A program made the position numbers and the translations under genes. Positions 33,371-60,084 of a stretch of 64,000 nt of DNA are shown here, in pieces. Every line of letters begins with the position of its first letter. Within the stretch, counting starts at the first letter, position 1. The stretch is taken from assembly GCF_902652985.1 (NCBI RefSeq), contig NC_047016.1, positions 31,682,001-31,746,000 on the forward strand, read 5' to 3'. Source of the stretch: Pecten maximus. Lineage: Eukaryota. The notes under the pieces are model-generated. The model was not told where the DNA came from and made no database searches. It saw nothing but the letters and a program-made list of their open reading frames with translations.

Positions 33371-33599
33371 GGCCTAAAGTAAGGTATTGTGAAGGCATTT
33401 GAGATAGCACTGGTAAATAAATAATAGATATCCCCAATGTTGTAATGACAGCAGTAGATTTATTTATGTTATTCCATAACCACAATTAAAATTACAAAAC
33501 TGAAGATTTGTACCTCTGATTTTATGGTCAAGAAGATATTCAATCTTCAGAACATTATCTCATTGATATAGGGATACATTTCTGAAGTCATAATGATTA

Positions 33600-39049: not shown

Positions 39050-39348
39050 AAACTTTGCAATATTCCTCATTAGGGCCGACCCTCAGGCCACTAAGCGCAA
39101 GAGTCATCATTTATGCAAAATTAGTCCTCAAGGATACTTCTGACCAAGTTGGTCAAATCCAACCAGTAGCGATTTACAGGATTGATCTCCATTTTCCATA
39201 TTGGGCCCCGCTCATCCCCAAAGATGCTTATGACCAAATTTGGCCAAAATCTATTCAGTCCTTTATGACTAGTAGCGATATAAAGGAAAAGTTGACGGAC
39301 TCCACGCCATGACCTCAGCTCACCGGTCTTTGGGACCAGGTGAGCCAT
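39050..39348 (+). mobile_element. Degraded HINE, 3' portion, related to 36176-37156
   Basis: TGACCAAATTTGG core remnant, GTTGACGGAC, AGCTCACCGGTC-TTTGG-GACCAGGTGAGC hairpin. Confidence 0.72.
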
Positions 39349-39500
39349 AACAATGATTCCAAGAGATGCAGTTTGATGTCGACCATGGGAACGTTTTTAT
39401 GGGTCGACATAATCTTTGTGAATTGTAGTCGAACGTGATTAGCGGTTTTTTTCAAATGCGTATTGGTTACGTTGTCTGCAAACTTGTTCTCATTCGAGAA

Positions 39501-41597
39501 TGTATGACGGGTGTCGTCGTGACCTACATTTGTATGACGGGTGTCGTCGTGACATACATTTGCATGACGGGTGTCGTCGTGACCTACATTTGTATGACGG
39601 GTGTCGTCGTGACCTACATTTGTATGGCGGGTGTCATCGTGACCTACATTTGTATGACGGGTGTCGTCGTGACCTACATTTGTATGACGGGTGTCGTCGT
39701 GACCTACATTTGTATGACGGGTGTCGTCGTGACATACATTTGCATGACGGGTGTCGTCGTGACATACATTTGCATGACGGGTGTCGTCGTGACATACATT
39801 TGCATGACGGGTGTCGTCGTGACATACATTTGTATGACGGGTGGCGTCGTGACATATATTTGTATGGTGGGTGTCGTCGTGACCTACATTTGTATGGCGG
39901 GTGTCGTCGTGACATACATTTGTATGACGGGTGTCGTCGTAACATACATTTGTATGACGGGTGTCGTCGTGACATACATTCGCATGACGGGTGTCGTCGT
40001 GACATACATTTGCATGACGGGTGTCATCGTGACCTACATTTGTATGACGGGTGGCGTCGTGACATACATTTGTATGACGGGTGTCGTCGTGACATACATT
40101 CGCATGACGGGTGTCGTCGTGACAAACATTTGCATGACGGTGTCGTGACATACATTTGCATGACGGTGTCGTGACTACATTTGTATGACGGATGTCGTCG
40201 TAACATACATTTGTATGACGGGTGGCGTCGTGACCTACATTTTTATGACGGGTGTCGTCGTGACCTACATTTTTATGACGGGTGTCGTCGTGACCTACAT
40301 TTGTATGACGGGTGTCGTCGTGACCTACATTTGTATGGTGAGTGTCGTCGTAACCTACATTTGTATGGCGGGTGTCGTCGTAACATACATTTGTATGACG
40401 GGTGGCGTCGTGACAAACATTTGTATGGTGGGTGTCGTCGTAACCTACATTTGTATGACGGGTGTCGTCGTAACCTACATTTGTATGACGGGTGTCGTCG
40501 TGACCTACATTTGTATGGTGGGTGTCGTCGTGACTTACATTTGTATGACGGGTGTCGTCGTGAACTACATTTGTATGACGGGTGTCGTCGTGACATACAT
40601 TCGTATGACGGGTGTCGTCGTGACATACATTCGTATGACGGGTGTCGTCGTGACATACATTTGTATGACGGGTGTCGTCGTGACCTGCATTGTATGACGG
40701 GTGTCGTCGTGACATACATTTGCATGACGGTGTCGTGACTACATTTGTATGACGGATGTCGTCGTAACATACATTTGTATGACGGGTGGCGTCGTGACCT
40801 ACATTTTTATGACGGGTGTCGTCGTGACCTACATTTTTATGACGGGTGTCGTCGTGACCTACATTTGTATGACGGGTGTCGTCGTGACCTACATTTGTAT
40901 GGTGAGTGTCGTCGTAACCTACATTTGTATGGCGGGTGTCGTCGTAACATACATTTGTATGACGGGTGGCGTCGTGACAAACATTTGTATGGTGGGTGTC
41001 GTCGTAACCTACATTTGTATGACGAGTGTCGTCGTGACCTACATTTGTATTGTGGATGTCGTCGTGACACATTTGTTTGGCGGGTGTCGTCGTCACATTT
41101 ATTTGTATGGCGGGTGTCGCCGTGACACATTTATATGACGGGTGTCGTCGTGACCTACATTTGTATGACGGGTGTCGTCGTGACATACATTTGTATGACG
41201 GGTGTCGTCGTGACCTACATTTGTATGACGGGTGTCGTCGTAACCTACATTTGTATGGCGGGTGTCGTCGTGACCTACATTTGTATGACGGGTGTCGTCG
41301 TGACCTACATTTGTATGACGGGTGTCGTCGTGACCTACATTTGTATGGCGGGTGTCGTCGTAACCTACATTTGTATGGCGGGTGTCGTCGTAACATACAT
41401 TTGTATGACGGGTGTCGTCGTGACATACATTTGTATGACGGTGTCGTCGTGACCTACATTTGTATGGCGGGTGTCGTCGTAACCTACATTTGTATGACGG
41501 GTGTCGTCGTGACCTACATTTGCATGACGGGTGTCGTCGTGACATACATTTGTATGACGGGTGTCGTCGTGACATACATTTGTATGACGGGTGTCGT
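39501..41597. repeat. CpG-rich minisatellite, 30-bp unit TGTATGACGGGTGTCGTCGTGACCTACATT, about 70 copies
   Basis: Direct periodicity; internal higher-order duplication with 564-bp offset. Confidence 0.98.
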
Positions 41598-42491
41598 TGA
41601 TGAAGCGGAAGACGCTTACACTTCGGAACGTCTGGTTTTATTCTCTTGATCGGTATTTGGTTCTTTTTTAAATGCCGATAGTGGCCCAGCAACTAAGCAA
41701 TTATATCTTTTTTCTGTCTTATTTTGTTAATAACCACTAGACGAAATGATAACTGAAAATAAAAGTCCCTAGATTAGTTTTTAAACAATGTGTACAATTG
41801 TCCCGTCATTAAACTGAAATTCGTCAGTAATCGCAGCTTACTTACTTACTAGTTCCGATTTGGGGAGTGTCATCCACAATACTCCTGGGGCTACGTTCAC
41901 ATTCGCTCGCAGAGAGCGAAAGCGAACATAAATCATAAAATGCCCCCTGACCAATCAAGAATGGAGGAGTGTGGCTGAGACACTATGCATTATTACACGC
42001 GTACTACTCTGCTTATTATATATTTTATTTCTCTTAATTTTATAACAATATTAATACCTGGTTTTAATGCTGATCAATTGTGTTGCATGACGTGTACAAC
42101 AGAGCTCTCTCCTGGTTAACTTGAGGACCTGGGCCAGAAGTTGACTGCCTGAAAAGTTCACACACACAGTCATAAACAAAGCTATATACCATAACAAGTA
42201 ATCATGTTTGAAGCGTCTATTAGATTGACACCCCATTAATCCTCACAAGCACAAAATGTAGTTGTCTCGAAAGACAGATTTTGACACAGCTTTCTTCTTA
42301 TATCGGAAAGTCATATTTAACGCACCGTTTTGCTTTTCAAAGGAGAACAATAGTTCATATTCACAAATGTAGTTTCAACAAAGCCATGTATACATTGACA
42401 ATCTGAATTTGTAAAGCTGATCCACCTGCTTATAAAAACCTCCTGAAGTTCGAAAAAGAAACTTTCCAATAAGAGGTTTGAGCTAATATAA

Positions 42492-44243
42492 TTAGGCATC
42501 TTCCGTACAAGCGCGGAGCACTTCCTCTATACTAATACCATCTTCATGAAATGCAGACGCCGTTTGTGGATCATTTACAACTTGAAATGCAAATGCCCTC
42601 CGCGCCTCTCGATTCGATTCTGGATCATCCGGGTCTTGTGAGGACCTGATTTCAATCCCGTTTCTGCCACGCCTTACGACAACACCTGGCCCGCCACTGC
42701 TACCCTGCTGCTGTCCCAGCGATCCCAGATTTTCAATGTTTCGTATATTACCTGACAACATTTCCTGTAAAGTCTCCATTGAGAGTCCGCCAGATCCATC
42801 CTGGGAGGACACCATTGCCGGATTGCTGCACAGCATTTCTCTAAGGGCAGCATTCATTCCTTCTTCACTACCACCTATCCTTAAATGTGCAGTTCGGTGT
42901 CGAACACGATTAAACATTTTATCAATACTGTAAATTCTAATTTGTCCGGAAAACATGTCTCCGATCCAGAATTTCTTATCTGGACCGAAAGCAATGCATG
43001 CTGGGTCACCGGTATGGTCATCATCACTACCCAGCAGCATGCCTAGTAATTTGGCCTTTGGACCGAGCACGTGGATAGACGAGGAAGAAAAATCGTGCAC
43101 GAATATCGTCCCGTCCTGGTCACAGCAGATTGAAGTAGGGGTGAATTCGTCAGGCCTCTCCGTCTCCGACGGTCGGCTTCGTGTTGGGAAAGTAATCCCT
43201 TTTTTGTACGACTCGCACGTCATTTCACGCCCTAATAAGTACACCATGTTCCGTTCCTCATCGGCAACACATATCTGCCGAGTCAAAGCATTATATTCGA
43301 TTGAATTAATTCGTTTGAATGTCGAGCGTTCGTTGATTCCCCTGATATCGGCAAGATTCCTATCCGAATCGTATATCATAACGTAACTTACGCCATCTGA
43401 AGACGCACTTACGTCCAAAGCGCCGATAACTAAGCCGTTTTCTTCATAGTTACAGAGAGACGTCGGGTAATAAGCGCCGGTATCGATGAGCAATTCACTT
43501 CCAGTTGAATTACACTTCAAAATGGACGCAACATCTTTACAAATGGCGAGTAAGCCATCTTTTTCATTCCAACATATGTCTAATGTTTTTCCGCGTCCAA
43601 CTGTGCGTTTGTCCTCTATATGCCCAGATAAGTTGAATTTGAATACATCTGATCCCTCATCTAACAAGATCCAGGCACTATATGCAGAAACGGGTATGAT
43701 TTTGGTTACACGTGTAGCTCCTGGGGCAGTGAAGCCATCCTGCAAATCGCCACAGTAACAGGATCGGACGAGTCCATTTAACAGGTGCTGAATGGTTCCT
43801 CTCATGGCTGGATCATCAGGATAGATAGCGGAAGCATCTACAATATCTGTGTCGTGGCATTTGTTATTTGTGTCGTTATCATCACTTTTTCCGTGATTTT
43901 CAAAGCATGTTTTACACAAGCAGAATGAGCAAGAGGCACACTCTAGCAGGGGCACATGGCTTCTATAATCACACGAATCACAAATGTACTCATTACACGA
44001 CGACACAAAGAAGTTTGTCAGTAACGAATCGACAGTTTTCTCCCTTGGTAATGTGGTAACCTGGCGGCAAACCGGACAAGGAATATTCTGCGCGTTTTTT
44101 GCCGACGAGTTGACCTTTTTAAGACACACGCTACAGAAAGTGTGTCTACACACCAACAGCTTTGGGGTTCGGTACACATTCATACATATTGCACATTCCT
44201 CCGTTACCAGACCCGTACCGTCCCCAGGAATGATGTCCTCCAT
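42492..44243 (-). CDS. TRIM-like E3 ubiquitin ligase, 583 aa: C3HC4 RING, one B-box-like Zn module, NHL-like beta-propeller, C-terminal tail; single coding exon
   Basis: RING CAIC..PKLLVCRHTFCSVC..CPVCR; Cys/His cluster CDSC..CASC..LCKTCFENH; NHL-like blades (PTSICCDQDGTIFVHD, PACIAFGPDKKFWIGD). Acceptor tttcAG lies 21 nt upstream of the ATG (exon from 44264). Confidence 0.9.
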   Translation of the reverse strand: MEDIIPGDGTGLVTEECAICMNVYRTPKLLVCRHTFCSVCLKKVNSSAKNAQNIPCPVCRQVTTLPREKTVDSLLTNFFVSSCNEYICDSCDYRSHVPLLECASCSFCLCKTCFENHGKSDDNDTNNKCHDTDIVDASAIYPDDPAMRGTIQHLLNGLVRSCYCGDLQDGFTAPGATRVTKIIPVSAYSAWILLDEGSDVFKFNLSGHIEDKRTVGRGKTLDICWNEKDGLLAICKDVASILKCNSTGSELLIDTGAYYPTSLCNYEENGLVIGALDVSASSDGVSYVMIYDSDRNLADIRGINERSTFKRINSIEYNALTRQICVADEERNMVYLLGREMTCESYKKGITFPTRSRPSETERPDEFTPTSICCDQDGTIFVHDFSSSSIHVLGPKAKLLGMLLGSDDDHTGDPACIAFGPDKKFWIGDMFSGQIRIYSIDKMFNRVRHRTAHLRIGGSEEGMNAALREMLCSNPAMVSSQDGSGGLSMETLQEMLSGNIRNIENLGSLGQQQGSSGGPGVVVRRGRNGIEIRSSQDPDDPESNREARRAFAFQVVNDPQTASAFHEDGISIEEVLRACTEDA

Positions 44244-45536
44244 TCTTTAGGCCAATGTGTCAAACTGAAATGTAAACAAGTCCAATATAATCAAAGTGTT
44301 AATGAATTGTTATTTCATTGCTTGACTATTTTCAAATCGAAGTTGTAAATTTGCACACCGTACTACTCTGTCAGGAGATGGTCCTGTTGAAACAGACTAT
44401 TTTTTATTCAGCGGCAAAGAATGACGCTGACACCACCATTTTACAATAAAGTGACCGGGTTTAAAGCAATTGGGCGGAGACATCCCAAAAATGACGATGG
44501 ATGTTCAATATAAAACGGGTTGACAGGAAAGGCTTCTTGTAGCGTTTTAAAAGAGAAACTTAGGAAGTGAGATCACTAAAGAATGGAACTCAATATTACA
44601 GATGATGTTGGGACGTCGGGTGGCGCAGTGTTCTCATCAGATGCACACACAAAGGTAATGATTAACTACAGACTTGTCGTAATCAATTTGAATATATCCC
44701 GACAAGCTTTGGTGTAAGTAACCTGGAACCTGGACAGAGTTCTTTCCTATCCGTACCAAGCATTCTGTCTAAACGCATCAAGTTGTAACGAGAAACCGAC
44801 AAGGATGTGTTTTTTGTCCATATCTACATAAATCAAAAACATTCTTATTTACAGACGATACTGTGATCTATTGGTAAATAATAGAATTATTGGTTTTGGT
44901 TTTACCTTTAAAAGTGTCCTATTAACAGCTGATGTCATATAAGGACGGGTCTCCTGTATACAAGATGCATGTTTGGTGAGTGTGCGTTTTGGAGGCTACA
45001 GTACTAGTTTGTCTTTGTTTGTCTCCTTGTCATAGCGCGGAACTAATCGAATATTGAGGATAAAATAAGCACTACCAGATCTCGACAGTTCACTGTCATA
45101 CGATCTTTAAAAAAAGTTCTAAAAAAGTAAGGTTCTCCAGATAGAAGAAATAAAACAAAGTAAGTACATATTTGCAGTTAATTGTCAATTAGTGATGCGT
45201 GGAAGAGACACGATTTTAAGAAGCTACAAGTGCTTGTTATGCCTCATATTGATGTTGCATCACTCCTTCGAATTAAGTAATAACTGCGCCTGGCGTCAAC
45301 CGTTAGAGTGACCAAGATGGACTTTGGTCATTGAAAGCTCTCGGTAAGGTTGGAAAAAAGTTGTGATGACGAGGCTAAATCTGAATTTATTCATAACATG
45401 TGTCGAAGAGAGACAGCATTTGTAACAGGACTTGAGGAACTTTTCAATATTATCGCAGCCCAAGGAGAGAGAAATAAAACAACAAACCATTTGACATTTG
45501 ATGTCGGAACGAGACTAAACACGGAAGACTTGAAAC

Positions 45537-46019
45537 CACAGGCGTCTCTTCTGGTTAGTTATACTAGAAACAAGAAATGCCTTTAAAAAAGATAAACGGC
45601 ATATTTTTAATTCTGATGGTTATAATGTAAAACTGGTGGTGAAATAAATCAACGAACTAATGCGTTTCAGCACGGAAAACAAAAGTGTATCAGTTTGAAT
45701 CATTTTTGGTGATAATAAGACTGCATTTGAATCGGGAATATAATTTTATCAATGTGTCATTTGAAAAGATACAGCCACATATTCAGCTTACATTCAATCT
45801 TAACTTTGTTTCGTTTTTAACTGCACATTGACCAATCACATACTTCATCTTGACCAGTAACGCCACCTGTCGCGTCATATCCGGGACCAAAAGAATATTA
45901 TACTGAATATTAGACCCTACTCATACTATAAACAATGTGTAACACTTGAAAATCTACGATGCATCGACTTTGGAACGGAAATAGTTAGTATTGTTTATAG
46001 AGTTGTCAACCAATTAGAT

Positions 46020-46058
<39 letters not shown>

Positions 46059-46322
46059 TACCACTAGAATATATATAGGATACTTCCGTTCCACAGTCGA
46101 TGCATCGTCGGCTATCACGATCGCTTTTGATCCATCTCATCTTTTTAAATTGTTGTCATACGACTGAAGAATAGCATGCATTGATATTTAAGGATTCTAA
46201 ACCAATGGACATTACTGAAGTTTGCGTACATTTGATATTTTAATCGGATTGAACTTAATTTCAAAGTGAATCGAAGCTCACCCCCTTGTTCCTATTATAC
46301 TAACCAGAAACAGACGCCTGTG
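45537..46322. mobile_element. MITE with ~23-bp TIRs (CACAGGCGTCT..TTCTGGTTAGT) and 7-bp TSD TTGAAAC; possibly P-superfamily
   Basis: TIRs at 45537-45559 and 46299-46322; TTGAAAC at 45530-45536 and 46323-46329. Confidence 0.85.
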
Positions 46323-49300
46323 TTGAAACATATGTTTTGTGCGTTTGATTCCAGGAAACCCTCATCTATTCATAGAATGTTTTGTTTCTGGAATTAGCCT
46401 TCACGACTTTGACATTATGTAACTAATTAAACAGAATTGCTATCCAGGGGTCGCAAGGAGAAACACTTTATCATGTACTTCCGCAATGTACACATATTGA
46501 AACAGGTCGAGTTTCTCCCTCGATACATCATCTACTTGAGAGCAGGACATAAATAATTAAGTTAACGTTACGTACGACAACATGTGTATATATACACTTT
46601 ACCCTCATAGTTCAGCAATATTTTGATCCTTGTGAAACCGCATTTTATACTAAAGTTGAAAAGTTGAAATTGGTGGGGTAGCAGGGGAGGAGCGCAGGGC
46701 TGATAGTCGATTCCTAATTTGCACGCACTTTTTGTCCGTGACAGTTAAGAACGTATTTTGACATATTATGTTATATAAATCCAGCAAGTTATTGTTATAA
46801 CTTTTCCAACGTCTCCTGTGTATGAAAGGCGTTCATGTCGAAAATGAGAAAATTAACGCGTTAAATGACAAATATTAGTATTTAACGTAATGTTTACACA
46901 GCACATTTAACGTGATAAACAGCTTCGAAAGTTTAACGCGTTGAAAGTAGTAGCTATTGTTTTAACGATTTAAAAAAGTAAAAATAATTTAACGCGTTAA
47001 AGTCATTTAAACGCGTTAGATTTATCTTGTTTTTTTATTACTTTGAAATCTTTATTACAAATTGCGTGGTTATTACAAATTGCATGGTGACATGGCCCTA
47101 TCATACGTCTGGCTCGCGCACATGTACAAATACAAACAATTTTATCGGCGATAGACGGCGCTGTACAAATATGACCTCAGGATTGCAAATTTGATGGATA
47201 CCAAAACAGAAAGTATTTATAGAGTTTCCGCGAAACTGTAACACGCAGTATATCGGCCCAAAGATATGGCGTCCATAACACTCCTTTACATAGTATAACG
47301 TTCTATAGGTAGCAAACACACTATAGACATATAGTCCATTAATTAAGGGTCATCTAAATAGCAAGTCCAGTGATATTTTACAAGCCTACAAATCACGACT
47401 CTGGTGCAATGGAACAGAAGTTACTTGATACGACACATAGAGATATTTGAATTAATAAAAATGTCCCTATTAGATACTATCTAGACATCTGAGCATGGTA
47501 ATTCCGGAGTTTGGGGCTATTTTCAGAAATCTGTATAATTTAACTCAAACACTACGGTGGAACTATTTTTCCTAACAATAGTCTTCTTGCTATGTTCAGG
47601 GATGTTCATAATGTCTGATAAGAGTATTTTTGATGATTGAAATGCGTCTCTATATGCCATGCATCCTGTGTTATATTACTTAAAACCGCCATTTGCATTC
47701 AAGGTCAAAAGAGAATCAATGTTTATGCTTTTATAAAGTCAAATCCGGTCAAACAAATGTCCCAACTACCTGCTACTTGCTTAGATACTTGAGAGCATAA
47801 TGACATGATTATCTAGCTTGCTGTGTTCTCCTGAAACTTTCATTTTTACAGGTGTTTTGGTGAAATTAACAAGCACCTTAACAAATCACATGTTAACAAG
47901 ACCCATTGTTAGCCACGATACCAACTAAAATTGACCAAATAGTAATTTATGGACTTGTAAAATATGTGCATTATAATCGTCCTGTTGTTCTTATTCAGTT
48001 TGAGCGGACTGCCTATAATTTGTTTTCTGACCTACATTTGTGTATTGTGTATAACTCCATAGGTAGATGTCCTCGCTGCCAGGTAGGCCTAATGACAAAT
48101 TCTCCTATTCCTCATTTATCTCGCAAAACATCCATGTTATGGTGCTGTAACGTTCCAACCAGTCCATTAAAAGTTATACAGATCTAATATATACCGTATT
48201 TGACCTAATAAGGGCGCCTGCCCTAATAAGGGCGCCCCTACCTTTTTTCAAGGAAATAAATCTTTGACTGAGTGTCAAAATGGTGTTCAAAAGTAATAAT
48301 TCATGTGAATTGTATATATATTAAATATTTCTATGAGATGGGTTGCACATATATATCCTCAATATATGTAGAGTACATAAATGTGTGCGACCTATCCTAT
48401 ACATTATATCATTTGTAACGGACCCCTGTGTTGGGACACTAGATCTATATGAATGTCTTCCTATAGATTATCTGCACACTGACTTTTAGTAATCCTACTG
48501 TCATGTGTGTCATTGGACCTAGTGTCAAATGTGAGCACATATGTAACATGTTCTATAAATATATCCGTGTAATAACTTTAACTGGGTCTACATTTCCAAT
48601 AGTTTTTGAATACACTGCAATGCAAAACTGTTTATAATAGGTCTAATAAGCAAACTACTACACGTATTAGTACTTACTCGATTAACCCCTTCGTGTGTTA
48701 GACATCTAGGCCTACACCACTTTAACTTCGATGAACACTCTAATGGCGGCATATAGCGATATATCTATTTCCCCTGTTCTAAAAATAGAAAAAAGGTAAA
48801 TCCACATTCCTAGCGGAACGGAGAACGGATCGCCATAAAACGAGATGAATTAAGTTTCTATCAGACATTATCCAAGAAAGGGGATATTTCTGTCTATATA
48901 AAAAAAAATGGAAGATATGCAGGGATAACATTTTAATGTAATCATATTTATTTAGTCGTGTCTGCATATAAACCTAGTGTATAAGTAATATGTAAGCTGT
49001 ATGGTTTTCAGATGACATTCATGGTGCATATGAATACCAACATGGATCCGCTTATGACATTATTAGAAGAAAATATACGCAGTCTAGACTGTTATTAATT
49101 GAATGGTTTTTTTTTTTTATACATAATGCTTTCATTTTTCTTATTTTGGGGATTCGTGAAACAAATGTTTTTTTTTTTTTTTTTCTTTTTTTCTTCTTCA
49201 TAAATTACAAAAGTTGCATGATCAACAAGCCACTTGTCATCTTTCTTTACTTTATATTATATTATATATACATTTATATAGATATATGTCTCTGCTTTAG

Positions 49301-52300
49301 GTCGTGGTTACCATTGTCACCATACATGTCAATCGCAAAACCACTCGGGCCTTTCCGTCATATCTTCGGAAAATACGGAATGGCCCGAGTCGTTTTCCGA
49401 TTGCATACGTGTTTATAATTGGAGTGCCTTAGGCAGTTCTTTCTTGGTCAGTATGCTGCTTCTACTGGATGGCAGTAGTCAATCTCTATACACTGTGGTC
49501 AAATTAGTGGAAGATTTTGCGATGGTATCTGGAATAAAGATAAATTTTATGAAACTCCGATCTGTACTGGATAGGAAATAAGATGTTTTCAAATAAAAGA
49601 ATATGTCCCGATTTGAGTATTAATTGGTCTAATGCTAACTTCAATTGGGTATTATGTGTTCCTCAAATCTGGATAATATGAAACGAATAATGATAATAGT
49701 AAACAAAATCGGCAAACAATGGAAACAAGGATACCGAAATTTCATAGGTCGTTATGAAGCTGTATTACCCTCTAGAAAAAATATATAGTTTCAATTATGT
49801 TGAGTAAAACCGACTGGATGTTTAATTACTGGAAATGTGTTCGACAGGTTGTGACAAATCCTACAAACAGTAAAGAGAAATGTGTTATAGAATGGATGAT
49901 GATTTTAATTGGCATGCTATATACATGCATATATAACAAAACATTTAACTGTTCAATGGGAGCAAAATTACAAACTTTCAAAATAAAATTAATCATAGGA
50001 TTATTTCAACAAATGATTTGTTATTGAAAATAAAATTATATTCTACTAGACTTTTTACATTATGTAAAACGGAATCAGAAACTTTAAAAAATATTTTTGT
50101 TTAGTGTTATTTAATATAGAGATTATTTGAACAGTTTAATGTTTAATATACTGAACATGATGATATACATCCATTTTATCACTTTAAAGATGCAGATATC
50201 ATTTTAGGAATCCAAAGTTTGGAAAGTTATCAACATTTTTTTCTAATATTAATAAAACATATTTATTATTGTCACATGAAAGACTCCATTCCAAATTTTA
50301 GAAAATGTTAGACTGGTTATACATCATGAAGGGGAAAAAACACTTTTAGAATAAATGGGGTATCTTTTAACAATCTTTGAATAACATTGAACCCTCATTA
50401 GGGAGGGGAAAAAAGGGTGAAAAAATGTAAAACTTTTTGTATAAAATATGTTCCGTTTGGAAGTAATGTATACTATCTTTGGCTCCTCTGTGGGGGTTGT
50501 CCGATACTCGGATAGGCATCTGGAGGATCTCACCTACTTTACCTGCCACATATAATTATTCTATAGACATCGTGTGTACTTTCTGTCAGATTTGTAAGGA
50601 TTTACATAGACAAGCATGCCATGTTAATTTGAATATAAATTTTGTTGTAAAGTATCGATAAAACTTAATAAATGCAGTTTTTGATGTTAAAAGTAGGTAC
50701 AAACTGAATGAAGAGTGGGATGGATGAATAGTGAAATTAATGAATTACAGATTTACAGAATGAATGAATGAATTACAAAATAAATGGATTACAGAATGAA
50801 TGAATTATGAAATTAATGAATTACATTATTACAGAATGAATGAATTATGACATTAATGAATCCAGAATTACAGAATGAATTAATTAATTGAATTAGAGAT
50901 TGATTTCCGGAATAATTACGTGGATGGAAATTAAAGATAATTAATAGTTTATTGTTTGAATGGATATTTGACGGTGAATGAGAGCCCTCTTGCACGAGGA
51001 CACATATTTGTACGGATGATGAATCAAGAGTCCTAACCTTCGCGGTTATCCATACATGCATATAATTGCCATTTAACGCAGATATAAAAACAGGCACAGG
51101 TAGACAACTCCGAGGTGTGATGACTACCTCAGTGTCTACTGTTTGTAAATTATATTAATTAGAGGAACGCTTAACATTAAAAAAAAAGATAAAATAAAAA
51201 AAGAAAGAAAGAAAGAAAACAGTTTTTAACATGATGTAGATTATTGTTTCGGTTGTGTGTTAATTTTTGGAGAGAAATCTAAATTATAGCTGCATACTCA
51301 CTTCATTTGCTTACAACACTGAACATATCATACAACACTGAGCATATTATTACAACACTGAACATATCATACAACACTGAGCATATTATACAACACTGAG
51401 CATATTATTACACCATTGGGCAAATTATTACGATATTATTTCGATATTATACTAATCCATATCTTCCTGAGTTACGTAATAATGTCTATTTTTCTCAATT
51501 TTTCATCACATTGTTTAGTCTCCCTTCACTTTGCCACTCCATACGGATCGGTTCAGTCCGTGTTACGCCGTTCCGTCTCCGTTCAGCATTTTAGATGGCA
51601 ACACATAATTTCCGGACAGGGACGAACACAGGAGGCAGAAATGGAGTTTTTTGTAGAGTGAGTAGAATAGTATGGTAAGTAGTAACGTATGTAAATAGCC
51701 ACATATACGTTCTCTGATTCTTGATGGACAAATCACAAAACGTAACATTAGTGTTAAACTAGCCAGTTAACGGATTTTGAAATCAGAACAGGGACTGAAA
51801 AAACTCATTCATATTTATACTGTTGTAGGATGTGTATCCCAACTTACCCAAGCGATACCACACACATTCGCACGTTATCCCGTCTTTATAACGTTTTCGT
51901 GAAGTATACACAAATGTGTCGCCACGCAGACGTAGCCTATGTTTGACCTAGGTCCTCTGTACAACATGGGAGGTTACAAATCCCGCTGTCTTCACCGAAG
52001 TGATCACTGTACACATGTATACGGAAAACGAAACTATTGTAAAAACTCAATGGTTTGACGGTTAGCCATATTGGAACATGAAGGTATAGGAAGTAGTATT
52101 GTATTGTGAGAATTACCCTTTTTTCTGTATTTTAAAACAGAATGAACTCTATTATTATTAACGCTATTATTATATCATACGAGAAGTGTATATCGAACCA
52201 CAATAATCACCGCCGCGATACTAAAGTCTGATACACAGTACGTTACATAAAACACACATCGGAAATAGGAGTAATTTAACAGTATCACACTGTATAATAG

Positions 52301-52699
52301 TCGCACACGTCAATTTACTTATACCACGACAGACTGTATTTAAACTATACAGTTAAATCATATCAGCCAGGCGACTGTATGCCACACGGACTTGGCCTAG
52401 CCCGAGTTGACACCATGTCTGGTGTAGGGCCAGAGGAAACTCGGGCTAGGACTTTGCCCAACTGAAGGTCCATACATGGGTGACGGATTCCTGTAATATT
52501 TACACAATTATTTAATTTTCATAATCTGAAACAAAATGGTGTTAAATTCCTTGTTTACCAAAAGACATCTGCAAGTTGAAATTCCATATGAAATGTAATA
52601 GTGATAATAGAAATCAACCACCAAGCACACATTCTCATCAGGCGGCGGTATGGACGACGGCATGCAGTTGAAGTTAATGATAACAGTTCGGTCCTGTCT

Positions 52700-54012
52700 G
52701 CGGAGTTTCGTTCGTCGGGCAGTGATACAGTAGTATGTGGTGTCTCCGGAGTGTCGTCCGTCGGGTAGTGATACAGTAGTATGTGGTGTCTCCGGAGTTT
52801 CGTCCGTCGGGAAGTGATACAGTAGTATGTGGTGTCTCCAGAGTGTGAGTGTCGTCCGTCGGACAGTGATACAGTAGTACATATGTGCTGTCTCCGGAGT
52901 TTCGTCCGTCGGGTAGTGATACAGTAGTATGTGGTGTCTCCGGAGTTTCGTCCGTCGGGCAGTGATACAGTAGTATGTGGTGTCTCCGGAGTTTCGTCCG
53001 TCGGGTAGTGATACAGTAGTATGTGGTGTCTCCGGAGTTTCGTCCGTCGGGTAGTGATACAGTAGTATGTGGTGTCTCCGGAGTGTCGTCCGTCGGGCAG
53101 TGATACAGTAGTACATATGTGCTGTCTCCGGAGTTTCGTCCGTCGGGTAGTGATACAGTAGTATGTGGTGTCTCCGGAGTTTCTTCCGTCGGGTAGTGAT
53201 ACAGTAGTATGTGCTGTCTCCGGAGATTCGTCCATCGGGTAGTGATACAGTAGTATGTGGTGTCTCCGGAGTGTCGTCCGTCGGGCAGTAATACACCTGT
53301 AGGTGCTGTCACCGGAGTTTCGTCCGTCGGGCAGTGATGCTGTAGTATGTGCTGTCTCCGGAGTTTCGTCCGTCGGGCAGTGATACGGTAGTACTAGTAT
53401 GTGGTGTCTCCGGAGTTTCGTCCGTCGGGCAGTGATACAGTAGTACTAGTATGTGGTGTCTCCGGAGTTTCGTCCGTCGTGCAGTGATACAGTAGTACTA
53501 GTATGTGGTGTCTCCGGAGTGTCGTCCGTCGGACAGTGATACAGTAGTATGTGCTGTCTCTGGAGTTTCGTCCGTCGGACAGTGATACAGTAGTATGTGG
53601 TGTCTCCGGAGTTTCGTCCGTCGGGCAGTGATACAGTAGTATGTGCTGTCTCCGGAGTGTCGTCCGTCGGGCAGTGATACAGTAGTATATGGTGTCTCCG
53701 GAGTTTCGTCCGTCGGGCAGTGATGGAGTAGTATGTGCTGTCTCCGGAGTTTCGTCCGTCGGGTAGTGGTGATACAGTAGTATGTGGTGTCTCCGGAGTT
53801 TCGTCCATCGGACAGTGATGCTGTAGTATGTGGTGTCTCCGGAGTGTCGTCCGCTGGGCAGTGATATAGTAGTATGTGGTGTCTCCGGAGTGTCGTCCGT
53901 CGGACAGTGATACAGTAGTATGTGGTGTCTCCGGAGTTTCGTCCGTCGGACAGTGATACAGTAGTATGTGGTGTCTCCGGAGTTTCGTCCGTCGGGCAGT
54001 GATACAGTAGTA
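52700..54012. repeat. CpG-rich minisatellite, 46-bp unit, about 28 copies
   Basis: CGGAGTTTCGTCCGTCGGGCAGTGATACAGTAGTATGTGGTGTCTC. Confidence 0.97.
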
Positions 54013-54141
54013 GGTGCCTATGCAATCGGAAGGTTTCTGATGTTTTATCGGACTTTCAAAGTATGATATGGGCCGACTAACATCAGAACTCCTACCATTG
54101 TGATGTAAAATAATAATATTGATAATGTATTATGTGCTCCA

Positions 54142-54297
54142 GGATCCTGTGTGAGGAGTCCTGATTTGACCTCTACCCCTGACCCGGATGTATATAATCC
54201 AAGTTGGTGACACATTTTGACAGCTATCTCCAGAAAATGCCCAACATGCTGGGTTGAAACTTTTATATTTTGCTTCTCAGATGTTGGTCTTGGCCAG
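54142..54297 (+). pseudogene. Second copy of the TATA + signal-peptide exon module with an in-frame nonsense codon (MPNMLG*)
   Basis: Homologous to 38840-38995; TATATAA 54191-54197, ATG 54237, TGA at codon 7, CAG|GTGAGA donor at the same position. Confidence 0.55.
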
Positions 54298-55197
54298 GTG
54301 AGATGGAAAGTTGCATATGAGATTTTGGGAATTTATTATGAATTTTAATGTTACAATGAAACATTTAGCGAAGCTAATTGTGGTCTTAGTCCGGATGTGG
54401 CGCTCTGACTCACTCAACAACTTGATCTCAGAATTGGACCATTTGAGTGAGTCGTCCTTGGTTGATAATAATGGCTGATACTGGCTTAAGATGATTTCTT
54501 TATTTGTCTTGTCAGTGATAATCTTCATAAGAATACAAGATCGCTTATTTAAATACACAAAAATCCCTATACACAGGCGTTCCAGATTTTGGTATAAAAT
54601 ATAGTTGCTATAAACAAGCTGCCAACAGTTGTAGGGGTTTTACCTGACTCGCAACGACAACAGACCTTTACCAGTTGTCGTACCAGACATCTTTCCAATC
54701 CTTAAAACATGGTCTACTGTAAGGATGATTTGTTTCTCGTTCAAGATGACCAATCTTGTCCGTAGTCTTGGAAACCAATCTGCCATCACTGGAAAATGGA
54801 CCCGAAGTAACAAAAACTGTCTATTTCTCTCTTCATGAAGTCATTCTGCAAGACACCTAATCCGCGAAGTTGTTCCTCAAAATTTTATGAATCATAAAAA
54901 AATAATATCTTCTGGTCGTGGTTTCTTCTATTTTCTCACCATGGAATCCACATGGAAGGTTATGCATTTTTCTGCTCCTCGGCAACAACATTGAGAGCAT
55001 CCACCGCCATTAACTAATCGCCATTGACTAATTAATTACATATATCAACCGTTCATGTCTGAATTGTTATCATTGTATCTTTAGCTGTTCTCTGGTAAGG
55101 ATTGTGCAAAAGACATACGAATGGAAATTTAATTACGGATGCATTATATAGCGAATAAGGAATATAAAACTGCATCTTACAGTTGTTTACTCTTCCT

Positions 55198-55755
55198 GGA
55201 CTCGTCAGTGATGCTAGGGACATCATACAGCTGTTTCGTCCTGATAGGCCTCGTCAGTGATGATTGGGACATCGTACAGCTGTGTCGTCCTTATAGGCCT
55301 CGTCAGTGATGCTAGGGACGTCATACAGCTGTGTCGTCCTTATAGGCCTCGTCAGTGATGCTAAGGCCATCATACAGCTGTGTCGTCCTTATAGGACTCG
55401 TCAGTGATGATTGGGACATCGTACAGCTGTGTCGTCCTTATAGGCCTCGTCAGTGATGCTAGGGACGTCATACAGCTGTATCGTCCTTATAGGACTCGTC
55501 AGTGATGCTAAGGCCATCATACAGCTGTGTCGTCCTTATAGGCCTCGTCAGTGATGCTAAGGCCATCATACAGCTGTGTCGTCCTTATAGGCCTCGTCAG
55601 TGATGCTAGGGACATCATACAGCTGTTTCGTCCTTATAGGACTCGTCAGTGATGCTAAGGCCATCATACAGCTGTGTCGTCCTTATAGGCCTCGTCAGTG
55701 ATGCTAGGGACGTCATACAGCTGTGTCGTTTTAGAATTCTTCAGTGATGTTAGGG
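55198..55755. repeat. Minisatellite, 49-bp unit x~11
   Basis: CTCGTCAGTGATGCTAGGGACATCATACAGCTGTGTCGTCCTTATAGGC. Confidence 0.96.
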
Positions 55756-56006
55756 TTCAAAAGTTTGGAAAACCTGAATGGAACTCGATGGAAATCAAAG
55801 TCATTTTATAAACTACGTCATGGCATTGTATATGACTAAGTTATGTTAATTTAGATTTGGTTTGATTTGAAAAATCTTATTCATTTTTTGATATTTTAAA
55901 AGTTCCGAAATAACTTCCACTTAATATTGCAACCTGATTTACGATATACACGTGCACGTAACTGGTGTTCGATAGGAAACTTAATCATCTTGAGTTTAAT
56001 ATATAA

Positions 56007-56431
56007 AGGTTACACAACGAGTGGTTGTTGGATATGGAATTTATTTCACAAGAGTAAGTTATTTTTTAAATGTTACAAAAGACACGAGCTTTAGCGAGTG
56101 AGAGCGAAATTCCATATCCAACAATTTCGAGTCGTGTGACCTGTTTCTACCACAATAATATCGGCTTGAATCAAAGGGAAACGTGGCCAAGTATAATTTC
56201 GCGTATGCAAATAAAGTGTACCGGTGACGTCCGGGACCCGGTGATGTGACGTCATTAGATTATTGATGACGTCAATAACAATTGCAGCTTGGGTCAAAGT
56301 TCACCGTGTTAGCCAATCGAAATGCGTACAGAGTTTATACCACGTGTGGTATAAACAGATTGTTAATCAACAGCTGTAATGATTAACTGATGGTCTGAGA
56401 GTTGAATAACACGGGGTATTGTGGTAGAAAC
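56007..56431. mobile_element. Two-domain foldback element immediately upstream of the plus-strand TRIM-like exon
   Basis: Hairpin arms 56007-56042 / 56107-56142; perfect 15-bp IR 56143-56157 / 56417-56431. Confidence 0.65.
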
Positions 56432-56569
56432 TATAGTAAACACTACCTATAATCACCGTTTATATTTAATTGCAGGACATTCCGAAAGAGCTCTGTTATC
56501 CAGGGAGTATCGTTCATATTAATTAAATCAATGTTTATTTCTTACTTCCAGAGAAAAGAGTTATAAAAT

Positions 56570-58537
56570 ATGACGTCAGAGGGGCTCACGACAAGAAAGG
56601 AGGACAATGACGGATCTTGTGCGATTTGTACGGAATTATATCTGGACCCGCGCCTCTTACCGTGTCGACACACCTTCTGTTTGGGTTGTCTGGAGAGATG
56701 GCATGCCTCGAGTCACCAAAGACATTATTTTTCCTGTCCGATATGTCGGGAGAAGGTTTGGTTACCATTTCTCGGAGTGCAGGGATTCAGATCGAACTAC
56801 TTCGTTCCCAGTCAGGGGGGGAAGTCCTGTAGTTTGTGTAGGACACCAAATGGTGATGTCTGTCGTTGTAATTCATGTGATAAATTTCTATGTCATAAAT
56901 GCAGAGCAACACATGGATCAAATAAAACATCTAAGGACTGCTCTCCTTGCTGTGAGCAAGAGGACGAAATCGTAGCAGAGGAGGACACAGCATTACGAGT
57001 AACCATCAGCGCGCTGAGACCGGTCACAAGGTCTTGCTGCTATGCCGAGCTCATTGGTGGGTTTCAATGTTCAGCGGGGGTAAGTGACATGAGAATCAAT
57101 AAGATAGTCCCTGTGTCGGCGACCGAGGCATGGATTTTGTTCGATAACGGCCCCGCTGTTCACAAATACAATATGAGCGGAATGCTGACTGATGTTAGGT
57201 GTGCAGAAGGTAAGGTTATAGACATATGCATTCACCCGGATGGACCATTACTCTTCATACAGGAATATTCCAATTCGATATCAGTCTGTGGAGACGAAAA
57301 CACCACGCCTATAGAATACCTAAACGTTGGAGATTATCTTCCAACGTCTTTCCTGGTCCGAGATGAAGGCTCAATTATCGTTGCTGCTAAACCATTAGAC
57401 GAGTCATTGTTAAATGTTTGTTACTTAATTGTATTCAACCAAGAAAGGAACGTGATAGGCATGCAAACCCTTCGTGGTGAGTTCGCGCGGATTAGTAGTG
57501 TGGCATTGGACGTTTATAGTAATAGAGTGTGTTCAGCCGACATGGACTGCAGGGTAGTCCACGTGCTTCCAAAGAAAAAAGTGTTAACATATAGGCGTTC
57601 TCCAGCTTTTCCTATCAGAAGTGGTTCGAATAGACCAATTACAACACGGTTCTCTCCTAGAGCAGTTTGTTCTGGATTGCAAGGCGCCTTTCTGGTTTTA
57701 GATGGCGGGTCAGGATATATTCATGTGTTGGACACGTTCGCTTGCCTTACAAGTGTTGTTGTAATGGACGACCAGGAACACATTGGTTCACCCAATACTA
57801 TCGCGATGGGTCGGAACGACCGACTCTGGGTGGGGGATGGCAGTGACGGTATGGTGAAAGTGTACAGTGTAAATGCTTTCATCAACCACCTCGAACCTGG
57901 AACTATGGAACATGGTTTTACGCGCAGTAATACTAGCGGTATCCACGAACACGTTCTGTCAGATCATTCAACACATCCACAAGAACATATACCATTGCCT
58001 GGTATTAATGATAACCCGAAGTATATATCAAAAGACACGCTAGAGGCATTGACTGGCGGTGTACTAAAGGATTATCCTCCGATAAAAGTTTTTGGTGGTA
58101 CCAATGGAATTGAAATCGTCCTTGGAGACACGGGCAGCCCAGAGGGAAATATTCGTGAACGGGAACGTGTACTGCGCATGCTTCGCGAGAACGAGCTCCT
58201 CAGGAAGCAGGTAGAACTAGTTGGTTCCAGTGCAGATATTTTAGGACCTGCTAACGTTACATTTAAAAGTGCCTCTGACATCCCGGCACAGCAGAATCAC
58301 CCAAATCCTCACCTGTTTGGAGTATTTTCATCAGTGCCAAATCCTGCTGGAAACTTTCCCCAGCAATACGGTCATGGCGGACGTAGTTTCCTAACTGGAA
58401 ATAGGGATTATGATTTGCGTCATCTGGAAAACTTTCTAAAGACGAATCCGGCAGTACGGGAAGACATGGAAAGAAAGGGAATCACACCTGGAATGGTTGT
58501 AGATTTTCCAAGCTTCTTAGATGGAAAGTTATTTTAA
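56570..58537 (+). CDS. TRIM-like E3 ubiquitin ligase, 655 aa, paralog of 42492-44243; single coding exon
   Basis: RING CAIC..PRLLPCRHTFCLGC..CPICR; CSLC..CNSC..LCHKCRATH; NHL-like blades (PRAVCSGLQGAFLVLD, PNTIAMGRNDRLWVGD). Aligns colinearly by eye with the minus-strand gene. Acceptor cttccAG lies 18 nt upstream of the ATG (exon from 56552). Confidence 0.9.
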   Translation: MTSEGLTTRKEDNDGSCAICTELYLDPRLLPCRHTFCLGCLERWHASSHQRHYFSCPICREKVWLPFLGVQGFRSNYFVPSQGGKSCSLCRTPNGDVCRCNSCDKFLCHKCRATHGSNKTSKDCSPCCEQEDEIVAEEDTALRVTISALRPVTRSCCYAELIGGFQCSAGVSDMRINKIVPVSATEAWILFDNGPAVHKYNMSGMLTDVRCAEGKVIDICIHPDGPLLFIQEYSNSISVCGDENTTPIEYLNVGDYLPTSFLVRDEGSIIVAAKPLDESLLNVCYLIVFNQERNVIGMQTLRGEFARISSVALDVYSNRVCSADMDCRVVHVLPKKKVLTYRRSPAFPIRSGSNRPITTRFSPRAVCSGLQGAFLVLDGGSGYIHVLDTFACLTSVVVMDDQEHIGSPNTIAMGRNDRLWVGDGSDGMVKVYSVNAFINHLEPGTMEHGFTRSNTSGIHEHVLSDHSTHPQEHIPLPGINDNPKYISKDTLEALTGGVLKDYPPIKVFGGTNGIEIVLGDTGSPEGNIRERERVLRMLRENELLRKQVELVGSSADILGPANVTFKSASDIPAQQNHPNPHLFGVFSSVPNPAGNFPQQYGHGGRSFLTGNRDYDLRHLENFLKTNPAVREDMERKGITPGMVVDFPSFLDGKLF

Positions 58538-60084
58538 TGTGATCATGTCACGCGCACGCTTTTACTGTGTAATTTGAATCTTTAACTGGAATTCGTATTT
58601 GATTTCGATCTACAGTGATTTAGTCACCGTTTTTTGCCGTTCGCCTTCTTAAAAAACAAAGGATGGATTTTAACCAAATTTTGCCATCAGGAATAAAAAA
58701 TCACATGTTCAAAATTTAGATTCTTCAGATTTGAAAATATCATGGCAAAATGCTATTGGATGTTGATACCTCGTTGGGTACTGAATACCTGGAGTCCATG
58801 CAAGGTCACTGGGGTCTCCTGTATGTGCCAAAAGTGGAGTCAAAATTTATTTCGAGTTGTGTAAATGGGTTCATATTGGATTTGGTGATGGTAAATAAGG
58901 GTCTGGCGCGTTTCAAGACTATATGTCTCAAAAATATAGCCCTTAACATTCAATATTCATGATTAATTTAGATTTTTTTTTTTTTTTCTTACTTTCATTT
59001 TTTTTTTCATTTCTGAGAAAATCCACAGCTAAATGTCTAATTGTGTATGTCTCATGAGGTCCGCCGAGGTTTATTTGTTTTCTTATAAGCTTCTTATGAC
59101 TCATTTTGTATGAGAAATGAACATTGTTATCAACTATTTTTTAATGAATTTTTAGAAATGCAATGTTACAGATTTTCTTAAAACATTGATTGTCAGAAGG
59201 TCGTTAAAACCCATGGAGTTATAATATTGGTGTTGACATCATGTAGCACCACCCCACTGTCATCTACCTATGTTTAGAGCTAAATATTTTACTGTTACAG
59301 CTGTTATGCACATTTAAGAATAATATCACATGCTCTTTGTGTAGATATGAGGTTTTATCTATGAGTTGTAAAGTCACATACTGCAGAATTGTTTAATTCC
59401 ACAAGGCTGATATTTGGCGGTTATCCCGGTACTAAATCTAGGACATTTTCGGACAACCAGAAAACAATTATAAACATGTATATGTTTATACATTGTACGT
59501 GTATTAATATTCGCTTGGTAATTCTTTTCGTGTTATATTAAACGTACTGAAATTAAATCTCGCAAATATTGCCAGCTATTTATCATACAACTGGACAACG
59601 ATAATGTTTCTGGTCAATGTTTTGCGATACAATCACTTTATTTGTTTATGTGGACCTTATGAATGACGTCATATTATGAATGATTTTCTAAAGATGTCAT
59701 GGATTCGACAGTGAATTTGTAATATGAATAAAATTTATATCTATAAGAATGAAATCTTTTCTTTATCATTAGTACAGGCTTTGATGAAACTCTTATATTA
59801 TAACATTAGTACATGTATTTATGAAACTCTTTGATTATAATATTAGTACATGTATTGATGGAACTTTTTGGTTACAACATTAGTATATGTATTGATAAAA
59901 CTCTTTGATTACAGTATTAGTACATGTATTGATTAAACTCTTTAACTATAACATAAATCTTTTCTTCGCATCGCAATATTGCAATCATTGGGTTGATAAA
60001 TATCTACATTGACCTCGTCCAACAACAATAATTATGTAACAAGCTAATTAATAGATATGTGAATTACCAGACGAGTTGGTGTAT

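What the first reader, a model, noticed from the sequence alone, without database searches (positions are those of the whole stretch)
42492..58537. Divergent pair of coiled-coil-less TRIM-like ligases (RING + single B-box + NHL propeller)
Seen: both ORFs go from a C3HC4 RING to one B-box-like Cys/His module and, about 40 aa later (shared RSC(Y/C) motif), straight into a beta-propeller. There is no room for B-box2 or the ~100-aa coiled coil. Established: TRIM-NHL proteins (TRIM2/3/71 type and the expanded bivalve sets) dimerise through the coiled coil, and dimerisation normally supports RING activity. The paralogs are intact but highly diverged (e.g. TKIIPVSAYSAWILLDEG vs NKIVPVSATEAWILFDNG), lie head-to-head 12.3 kb apart, and both have an acceptor 18-21 nt before the ATG. 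Inference: an old, selected, possibly undescribed E3 subfamily that must oligomerise differently, perhaps a co-regulated heteropair in innate immunity.
Basis: partly seen in the sequence, partly recalled or inferred. Interest (0 to 1): 0.72.

Follow-up and report, generated by a model that had tools for sequence, protein, structure and literature searches.

The report
Coiled-coil-less bivalve TRIM-NHL ligase family
Two neighbouring scallop genes encode stripped-down relatives of TRIM ubiquitin ligases that lack the usual dimer-forming stalk; they belong to a wider, apparently undescribed bivalve family that likely attaches ubiquitin to targets as single chains, a design that parallels human malin.

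Summary
Both ORFs are intact, with the whole coding sequence in one exon, and encode RING, one B-box1-like module and a six-bladed NHL propeller. Neither has a B-box2 or coiled coil; RNA contigs show no hidden coding exon in gene 1. Both have one-to-one orthologs with neighbouring accessions in three other scallop genera. (1) The pair belongs to a wider clade: 49 sampled sequences form one branch, including oyster, ark-clam and pearl-oyster proteins and at least six loci on this chromosome, probably derived from long molluscan TRIM-NHLs by one deletion. (2) The clade also lacks the RING-flanking helices that dimerise TRIM2, yet keeps the linchpin Arg (45 of 46) and E2 contacts. (3) Each protein has a pair-specific C-terminal helical domain with no fold match. 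(4) Malin/NHLRC1 is a known RING-NHL ligase without a coiled coil. Best reading: a likely monomeric, malin-like E3. A TRIM3-type pseudoligase is the main rival. Eight paper searches found no description. Unchecked scan notes report RING-less, coiled-coil-less relatives in a clam and Naegleria.

The parts
42492..44243 (-). Gene 1 CDS (P0001, 583 aa): RING, B-box1-like module, NHL propeller, C-terminal tail; coding sequence in one exon
   Evidence: unbroken RNA contigs 42057-44262, 41997-43938 and 42132-44215 in three of four runs
44064..44195 (-). Gene 1 C3HC4 RING (aa 17-60) with linchpin Arg60; no flanking dimer helices predicted
43893..43982 (-). Gene 1 B-box1-like zinc module (aa 88-117): 7 of 8 ligands in pattern; the eighth His of the long forms is missing
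42909..43766 (-). Gene 1 six-bladed NHL propeller (aa 160-445)
42495..42686 (-). Gene 1 pair-specific tail domain (aa 520-583): predicted beta-hairpin plus three helices, no fold match
   Evidence: (pLDDT 81-92)
44265..48677 (-). Gene 1 5' intron (4413 nt); acceptor 21 nt before the ATG
   Evidence: one contig joint in run X2
48678..48748 (-). Gene 1 upstream non-coding exon (only a short uORF; 5' end not defined)
56247..56274 (+). Two CRE-type palindromes about 300 nt upstream of the gene 2 ATG; putative own promoter (inferred)
   Evidence: 5 in window, 0.58 expected from shuffles
56535..56551 (+). Predicted splice acceptor of gene 2, 18 nt before the ATG (not checked with reads)
56570..58537 (+). 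Gene 2 CDS (P0002, 655 aa): RING, B-box1-like module, NHL propeller, tail with duplicated helical unit
   Evidence: four runs on record as RNA hold 72-84% of sampled words of 56200-58800
56618..56749 (+). Gene 2 C3HC4 RING (aa 17-60) with linchpin Arg60; 86-89% identical in three orthologs
56828..56914 (+). Gene 2 B-box1-like module (aa 87-115)
   Evidence: B-box1 profile 16.2 bits vs B-box2 profile 3.1
57029..57886 (+). Gene 2 NHL propeller (aa 154-439), by alignment to gene 1
58085..58279 (+). Gene 2 tail unit 1 (hairpin plus helices), homologous to the gene 1 tail
58379..58519 (+). Gene 2 tail unit 2: conserved block resembling the helical part of the tail domain (inferred internal repeat)
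   Evidence: 60-70% identical in three orthologs, against 21-39% for the spacer before it

Best explanation
The two genes are intact, conserved paralogs of a bivalve TRIM-NHL offshoot that lacks B-box2, the coiled coil and the RING-flanking dimer helices, and each protein likely works as a single-chain E3 ubiquitin ligase, with the NHL propeller predicted to bind a protein substrate and the RING predicted to engage E2~ubiquitin. Shown: the architecture, its conservation, and a single branch for the family in the propeller tree. Inferred, origin: one deletion just after the first His of B-box1 in a long molluscan RING-B1-B2-CC-NHL gene; spread to several loci on one chromosome; an inverted duplication before the sampled scallops split gave this pair, which then gained a tail domain. 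Inferred, mechanism: the classical four-helix RING dimer cannot form, so the closed E2~Ub state would be supported by the linchpin Arg plus a cis element (the conserved post-RING N(F/Y)FV segment and adjacent B-box1) or by clustering on a multivalent substrate. This would be convergent with malin, not orthologous to it.
For: RING-to-propeller spacer median 100 aa (74-157) in 46 RING-bearing family rows vs 280 in 29 long rows; B-box2 pattern 0 of 46 vs 25 of 29. The module scores better on a B-box1 than a B-box2 profile in 34 of 49 rows, the reverse in 1, and 14 score low on both. Propeller-only trees: 49 of 49 in one branch (FastTree 0.86; 100/96 after dropping 10 long-branch long rows; AU p 0.95). 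E2-side residues kept: linchpin Arg 45 of 46 vs 17 of 29; TRIM2 I25- and V62-equivalents hydrophobic in 46 and 45 of 46. Dimer helices absent: alpha1 pattern 0 of 46 vs 8 of 28; 25 of 46 start under 11 residues before the first Cys; both alpha3 core positions hydrophobic in 0 of 46 (mapped through and passages of PMC9732051); no helix there in the model. Orthologs keep RING at 70-89% and propeller at 67-74% identity. The language-model search returns NHLRC1-like chordate clusters first (score 0.91). Malin is an active RING-NHL E3 without B-box or coiled coil (PMC3160408 abstract and sections 7-8; PMC8067510 passages).
Against: No activity was measured. Human TRIM3 RING keeps the linchpin Arg and binds E2, yet is monomeric and inactive because alpha1 is disrupted, and no monomer-activation mechanism was described for TRIMs (PMC9732051 passages); TRIMs lacking these helices fail to ubiquitinate (PMC11992055 passages). 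Many long molluscan forms also lack a clear alpha3 (both core positions hydrophobic in 1 of 28; 11 of 28 not mappable), so that loss is not specific to this clade. In the full 86-row IQ-TREE search one long form (P0148, a long branch) fell inside the branch. Family rows were gathered by similarity to P0002, which favours shared residues. Gene 1's own module scored 6.4 bits on the B-box1 profile against a partial 11.2 on B-box2.
Confidence: 0.5

Rival explanations
1. Pseudoligase or adaptor: the RING binds E2 but is inactive alone, like human TRIM3, and acts as a scaffold, decoy or co-activator of another RING.
For: Both dimer helices and the coiled coil are missing. By the class VII rule such RINGs are inactive (PMC9732051 and PMC11992055 passages). 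TRIM3 shows that keeping the linchpin is not enough.
Against: Linchpin Arg is nearly invariant across a clade whose members are only 21-30% identical, more so than in the long forms (17 of 29). Without a coiled coil there is no obvious way to hold a partner TRIM. Malin is active without a coiled coil.
Confidence: 0.22
2. One reading: the two paralogs dimerise with each other (or gene 1 with itself) through the pair-specific C-terminal domain, which replaces the coiled coil and brings two RINGs together.
For: Among the aligned family members the tail is recognisable only in the two paralog groups, and no other own-genome match exists for the gene 2 tail. It is conserved (52-70% for gene 1; 40-54% and 60-70% for the two gene 2 units) and predicted folded. 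Gene 2 appears to carry the helical unit twice, which hints that units pack in pairs (inference). The genes have neighbouring accessions in three other genera. TRIM2/TRIM3 heterodimers are a precedent.
Against: About 40 other sampled family rows lack this tail, so it is not needed for the family's basic function. The RING helices needed for a canonical active dimer are still absent. The 5' regions are about 7.5 kb apart rather than a compact shared promoter. Adjacency alone is expected after a tandem duplication.
Confidence: 0.15
3. A divergent ortholog group of chordate malin/NHLRC1 rather than an independent reduction.
For: Top language-model hits are NHLRC1-like clusters. Both have a RING and six NHL repeats, and malin is single-exon in most genomes examined (PMC3160408 section 7).
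Against: The family keeps a B-box1-like module that malin lacks. Its propellers group with long molluscan-type forms (100/97). Its best solved matches are TRIM2/3. Malin was reported only in vertebrates and a cephalochordate. No malin sequence was in the trees.
Confidence: 0.06
4. An RNA-binding post-transcriptional regulator like Brat or LIN-41, with ubiquitin ligation secondary.
For: The propeller fold matches TRIM71, Brat and Mei-P26 NHL domains.
Against: Propellers of the pair and six of their orthologs are net acidic (-6 to -9). This is a crude test: surface patches were not mapped, and the TRIM71-like control L019 is only +2.
Confidence: 0.05
5. Artefact: truncated or mis-read genes whose B-box2 and coiled coil lie on unseen exons, or decaying copies.
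For: Gene 2's exon structure was not checked with reads.
Against: RING, zinc module and propeller lie in one continuous reading frame, leaving no place for an exon. RNA contigs cross gene 1 without a joint. NCBI models in three other genera have the same length and layout.
Confidence: 0.02

Closest known systems
Malin / NHLRC1 (EPM2B), TRIM-like RING-NHL E3 ligase of chordates
   Same: RING joined to six NHL repeats with no coiled coil; coding sequence in one exon; derived from class VII / subfamily C TRIMs by deletion of RBCC parts (PMC3160408 sections 7-8; PMC3503706 passage). Nearest clusters in the language-model search.
   Different: This family keeps a B-box1-like module (37 of 46 by pattern), is multi-copy in bivalves and groups with long molluscan forms. 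The pair has extra C-terminal domains. Orthology and a laforin partner were not tested.
Class VII TRIM-NHL proteins TRIM2, TRIM3 (also TRIM32/Thin, TRIM71/LIN-41)
   Same: RING and post-RING segment align best to TRIM2/3 (E 1e-13); propeller best matches TRIM2/3 NHL; linchpin Arg and E2 contacts kept.
   Different: No B-box2, coiled coil or filamin domain; the alpha1/alpha3 four-helix dimer interface is absent; the retained module is B-box1-like.
Expanded long molluscan RING-B-box1-B-box2-coiled coil-NHL proteins (auto-named TRIM2/3/56-like)
   Same: Same RING with an N(F/Y)F motif leading straight into B-box1, and related propellers (sister position 100/97). Long B-box-coiled coil-NHL genes are present in this genome too (L011, L014, L016, L017).
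   Different: Spacer about 280 aa with B-box2 and heptad-rich helices, eighth B-box1 ligand kept, linchpin variable (17 of 29 Arg).

Membership tests
TRIM (RBCC), class VII TRIM-NHL | N-terminal C3HC4 RING | tested here: met
   Pfam; all eight ligand positions nearly invariant
TRIM (RBCC), class VII TRIM-NHL | B-box2 | tested here: not met
   Pattern absent in 46 of 46 family rows, present in 25 of 29 long rows; profile comparison
TRIM (RBCC), class VII TRIM-NHL | At least one complete B-box (B-box1) | tested here: inconclusive
   Seven ligands in B-box1 spacing, below Pfam cut-offs. The eighth His of long forms is missing; it may be replaced by H-x-C/H (15 of 37 rows) or a downstream Cys in the pair
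TRIM (RBCC), class VII TRIM-NHL | Coiled coil between B-box and C-terminal domain | tested here: not met
   39-43 aa linker; longest predicted helix 11 aa in gene 1; home-made heptad score 0.38 and 0.31 vs long-form median 0.82
TRIM (RBCC), class VII TRIM-NHL | alpha1/alpha3 helices flanking the RING (four-helix dimer) | tested here: not met
   TRIM2 V12/I16/F20 map to P/T/T and L/K/D; L86/V89 map to C/Y and Q/K; no helices there in the model
TRIM (RBCC), class VII TRIM-NHL | C-terminal six-bladed NHL propeller | tested here: met
   Pfam NHL hit at E<=0.01 in 28 of 45 members
TRIM (RBCC), class VII TRIM-NHL | E3 ubiquitin ligase activity | not testable with these tools
   Only sequence hallmarks (linchpin, E2 contacts)
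Malin / NHLRC1 | RING plus six NHL repeats without coiled coil | tested here: met
   definition from PMC8067510 passage
Malin / NHLRC1 | No B-box | tested here: not met
   B-box1-like module in both genes; lost only in some other members such as L008/L009, P0053, P0056
Malin / NHLRC1 | Coding sequence in a single exon | tested here: met
   Single ORFs; RNA contigs for gene 1
Malin / NHLRC1 | Orthology to chordate malin in a tree | not tested
   No malin sequence was identified among the session's proteins; the trees lack it
Malin / NHLRC1 | Functional complex with laforin | not testable with these tools
   Not examined
RNA-binding NHL proteins (Brat, LIN-41/TRIM71) | Basic RNA-binding top surface of the propeller (feature recalled, not from a call) | tested here: inconclusive
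   Only net charge computed: -8 and -6; no surface mapping

The most novel reading that the evidence does not exclude
A pteriomorph-bivalve-wide clade of TRIM-derived ligases that are active as monomers, with the truncated B-box1 and post-RING segment replacing the second RING in stabilising E2~ubiquitin. This would be the first monomer-activation mechanism for a TRIM-type RING and a natural model for how malin works. The scallop pair adds a new small C-terminal domain that may pair the two paralogs.
Probability: 0.3. Interest if true: 0.7.

Novelty: new variant of a known kind. Interest (0 to 1): 0.46.

Why it matters
TRIM RING activity is generally held to need a helix-mediated RING dimer on a coiled-coil scaffold. 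A 2021 review calls it unknown whether malin needs RING dimerisation (PMC8067510 passage), and a 2022 paper says no monomer-activation mechanism was described for TRIMs (PMC9732051 passage). This clade has dropped both dimer elements while keeping E2-side residues across many divergent members. That gives a panel of natural, intronless, easily expressed proteins to test the question. It also matters for annotation: members are auto-named TRIM3, TRIM32 or nhl-1 in databases, so expression studies citing 'TRIM2/3-like' bivalve genes may mix in this different architecture.

Tried and rejected
Tail domain identity: no Pfam family (best E 0.07); no usable Atlas hit; Foldseek best E 0.41; VIA best Z 4.1 of 48,161 chains. 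An STI1-like resemblance I recalled was not supported, and absence of a match does not show a new fold. Word-seeded homolog searches reached only scallop-level relatives; the wider family came from the HMMER scan (best 150 listed of 4336). dN/dS between species could not be computed (no ortholog DNA); five coding variants in gene 1 contigs were 3 synonymous and 2 non-synonymous, too few to read. The sigma-70 promoter scan is irrelevant for an animal. A three-piece tail alignment was poor and serves only as a hint of the internal repeat. Further own-genome searches with two distant members found no loci beyond those. The head-to-head orientation in other scallops was not seen: only neighbouring accessions and equal scaffold lengths. 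Scan look-up by sequence returned nothing; look-up by place returned unrelated retrotransposon notes. PMC8382680 passages list expanded B-box and RING orthogroups in bivalves without architectures. Supplements of the cited papers were not read; orthogroup tables there could include this family.
Full report
Observation. The window holds two long ORFs at the stated places: gene 1, 44243-42492 on the minus strand, 583 aa (P0001), and gene 2, 56570-58537 on the plus strand, 655 aa (P0002). Their start codons diverge 12,327 nt apart. They align at 31% identity over 557 residues. Pfam finds a C3HC4 RING at residues 17-60 in both and one weak NHL hit in gene 1. Scanned alone, the Cys/His module gives only sub-threshold B-box-family hits. 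An AlphaFold2 model of P0001 on a 45-sequence alignment (mean pLDDT 81.8) shows RING, the zinc module, a linker with helices of 4 and 11 residues, and a propeller from 161 to 445. The propeller's best solved matches are the NHL domains of TRIM2, Thin, TRIM3 and TRIM71. There is no coiled coil. P0002 was not folded; its domains are assigned by alignment.

Gene structure and expression. Both ATGs have an acceptor-like site upstream, at 21 and 18 nt. For gene 1, contigs of three of four runs cover most or all of the CDS without a joint, and one contig of a run on record as RNA joins 44264 to an exon at 48678-48748 across a 4413-nt GT-AG intron. That exon holds only a short upstream ORF, so it adds no coding sequence. 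For gene 2, 20 of 24 listed runs hold the stretch or part of it, four of them on record as RNA with 72-84% of sampled words; its exons could not be checked. Two CRE-type palindromes lie about 300 nt before the gene 2 ATG, about 7.5 kb from gene 1's upstream exon, with two satellite arrays between. Contigs cannot define start sites, but this does not look like a compact bidirectional promoter (inference).

Conservation. Each gene has a same-length ortholog in Mizuhopecten, Ylistrum and Argopecten at 55-67% identity, which marks the window as a scallop's. Accessions are neighbours (OWF41909/OWF41910; XP_069121882-4/XP_069121885), and the Ylistrum pair lies on scaffolds of equal length; orientation there was not seen. 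Identity is high in RING (70-89%) and propeller (67-74%) and low in the spacer after the propeller (26-39%), as expected under purifying selection.

The wider family. A HMMER scan of 1.84 billion representatives with P0002 (best 150 of 4336 listed) returned many 440-570 aa proteins matching from RING to propeller end. Of 20 such clusters looked up, five carried a taxon: Saccostrea, Tegillarca, Pinctada (two) and Magallana, all pteriomorph bivalves; the other 15 name no taxon. The own genome has six such loci on contig C2 (15.5, 20.3, 21.2, 23.7 Mb and the pair at 31.7 Mb), plus a near-duplicate on a small contig (421 of 434 residues identical). Each is one ORF; this count is a lower bound. I took 49 short-spacer rows (the 45-row alignment minus three near-duplicates, plus seven) and 37 hand-picked long rows from the same searches. 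In the 46 short rows with a recognisable RING the spacer to the propeller is 74-157 aa (median 100). In 29 long rows the median is 280, two of them mis-measured. A B-box2 pattern occurs in 0 of 46 vs 25 of 29, and a home-made heptad score has medians 0.46 vs 0.82. The retained module fits B-box1 better in 34 of 49 rows, B-box2 in 1 (a partial hit in P0001), and neither in 14. The long forms have an eighth ligand His some 5-8 residues after the first, which the family lacks. The deletion therefore seems to begin right after the first His of B-box1. Several members have lost the module as well (L008/L009, P0053, P0056) and so reach a malin-like RING-NHL layout.

Trees. On 273 propeller columns, FastTree puts all 49 in one branch (0.86). 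A quick IQ-TREE search adds one long-branch long form to it (SH-aLRT 98). The AU test does not reject one clade (p 0.95, and the constrained tree is the better one). With ten long-branch long rows dropped, support is 100/96 and the branch sits among long molluscan-type forms (100/97). The two genes are sister groups (100/98), each containing all four scallop genera, so the duplication predates their split. Malin and TRIM32 were not in the trees, and the two chosen outgroup rows did not form one side of a branch, so the rooting is approximate.

RING anatomy. TRIM2 dimerises through helices alpha1 (V12, I16, F20) and alpha3 (F82, L86, V89), and this is needed for activity (PMC9732051, passages). 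Aligned through, these positions are P/T/T and F/C/Y in P0001, and L/K/D and F/Q/K in P0002; the B-box starts 10-11 residues after the conserved Asn. Across the family the alpha1 pattern is found in 0 of 46 rows (8 of 28 long rows), 25 of 46 start fewer than 11 residues before the first Cys, and both alpha3 core positions are hydrophobic in 0 of 46 (1 of 28 long rows; 11 of 28 could not be mapped, and three family rows were mis-registered by the pattern). In contrast the linchpin is Arg in 45 of 46 vs 17 of 29, and the E2-contact positions are hydrophobic in 46 and 45 of 46. So both known dimer elements are gone while the catalytic face is kept. Against reading this as activity: TRIM3 keeps the Arg and is inactive as a monomer, and TRIMs without these helices are pseudoligases (PMC9732051 and PMC11992055, passages; review PMC13591260, passages).

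The tail. Both genes extend past the propeller. P0001 residues 520-583 are predicted to fold as a beta-hairpin plus three helices (pLDDT 81-92). P0002 has a homologous unit and a second conserved block resembling its helical part. The domain has no Pfam, Atlas or PDB match and no other own-genome match.

Mechanism. Most likely (0.5) each protein is a single-chain E3: propeller for substrate, RING for E2~Ub, with a cis element or substrate clustering replacing the RING dimer; all functional steps are inferred. The propellers are net acidic, a weak hint towards protein rather than RNA substrates. Rivals: pseudoligase or adaptor (0.22), tail-mediated heteropair (0.15), malin ortholog (0.06), RNA regulator (0.05), artefact (0.02). 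An immune role is possible, since TRIM2/3-like transcripts track parasite tolerance in oysters (PMC9892467, passages), but nothing ties it to this clade, and the pair is conserved one-to-one.

Comparison and novelty. It works like a class VII TRIM-NHL by descent but fails RBCC membership (no B-box2, no coiled coil). It resembles malin in layout: malin is a RING with six NHL repeats and no B-box or coiled coil, single-exon in most genomes, reported from vertebrates and a cephalochordate (PMC3160408, abstract and sections 7-8). TRIM-like genes arising by deletion of RBCC parts are known (PMC3503706, passage), and the Atlas search returns NHLRC1-like clusters first. Whether malin needs RING dimerisation is stated as unknown (PMC8067510, passage). 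Eight searches of the open library (listings only except for the papers named) found no description of a coiled-coil-less bivalve RING-B-box-NHL family; subscription journals and supplements were not covered. Unchecked notes of this scan report RING-less, coiled-coil-less B-box/propeller sets in a clam and in Naegleria, which suggests coiled-coil loss recurs.

Noticed in passing
G000:C2 at 15.54, 20.32, 21.25, 23.68 and 31.72-31.74 Mb (L003, L010, L007, L009, window): All six placed family loci found in this genome lie on one chromosome-scale contig; two Pinctada members sit on scaffolds of equal length and two ENA members on contigs of the same length (19,066), hinting at conserved linkage.
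   Followed up: partly
L008 (G000:C3497) vs L009 (G000:C2:23.68 Mb): Near-identical copies (421 of 434 aa) of a member without any B-box, i.e. RING-linker-NHL like malin; the small contig may be an unmerged haplotype.
   Followed up: partly
window 56226-56355: Cluster of CRE-type palindromes (56247, 56267) with nearby CCAAT- and TATA-like words upstream of gene 2; a further palindrome overlaps its start codon (56571).
   Followed up: partly
P0001 aa 343-368 (window about 43140-43215): An inserted propeller loop with an FP-x-R/K motif conserved in the pair and in P0037/P0042; candidate substrate-binding loop.
   Followed up: no
window 39315-41597, 52695-54016, 55201-55729, 59749-59954, 61848-62708, 12750-13600: Minisatellite arrays (periods 30, 46, 49, 37, 31; the first array's left part and the last array seen only as repetitive ORFs) that create long spurious ORFs.
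   Followed up: no
window 45590-45900, 47690-48310, 52400-52450: Short interspersed repeats with very high contig depth in RNA runs, probably MITE- or SINE-like elements, two of them inside the gene 1 intron.
   Followed up: no
window 32874-33485 (-): 203-aa frame resembling the C-terminal end of a LINE reverse-transcriptase ORF (recalled resemblance; Pfam found nothing).
   Followed up: no
P0066, P0075, P0106: A sub-branch of the family with 100-130 aa N-terminal extensions beginning MGT/MAT; the MG starts may be myristoylation signals (inference).
   Followed up: no
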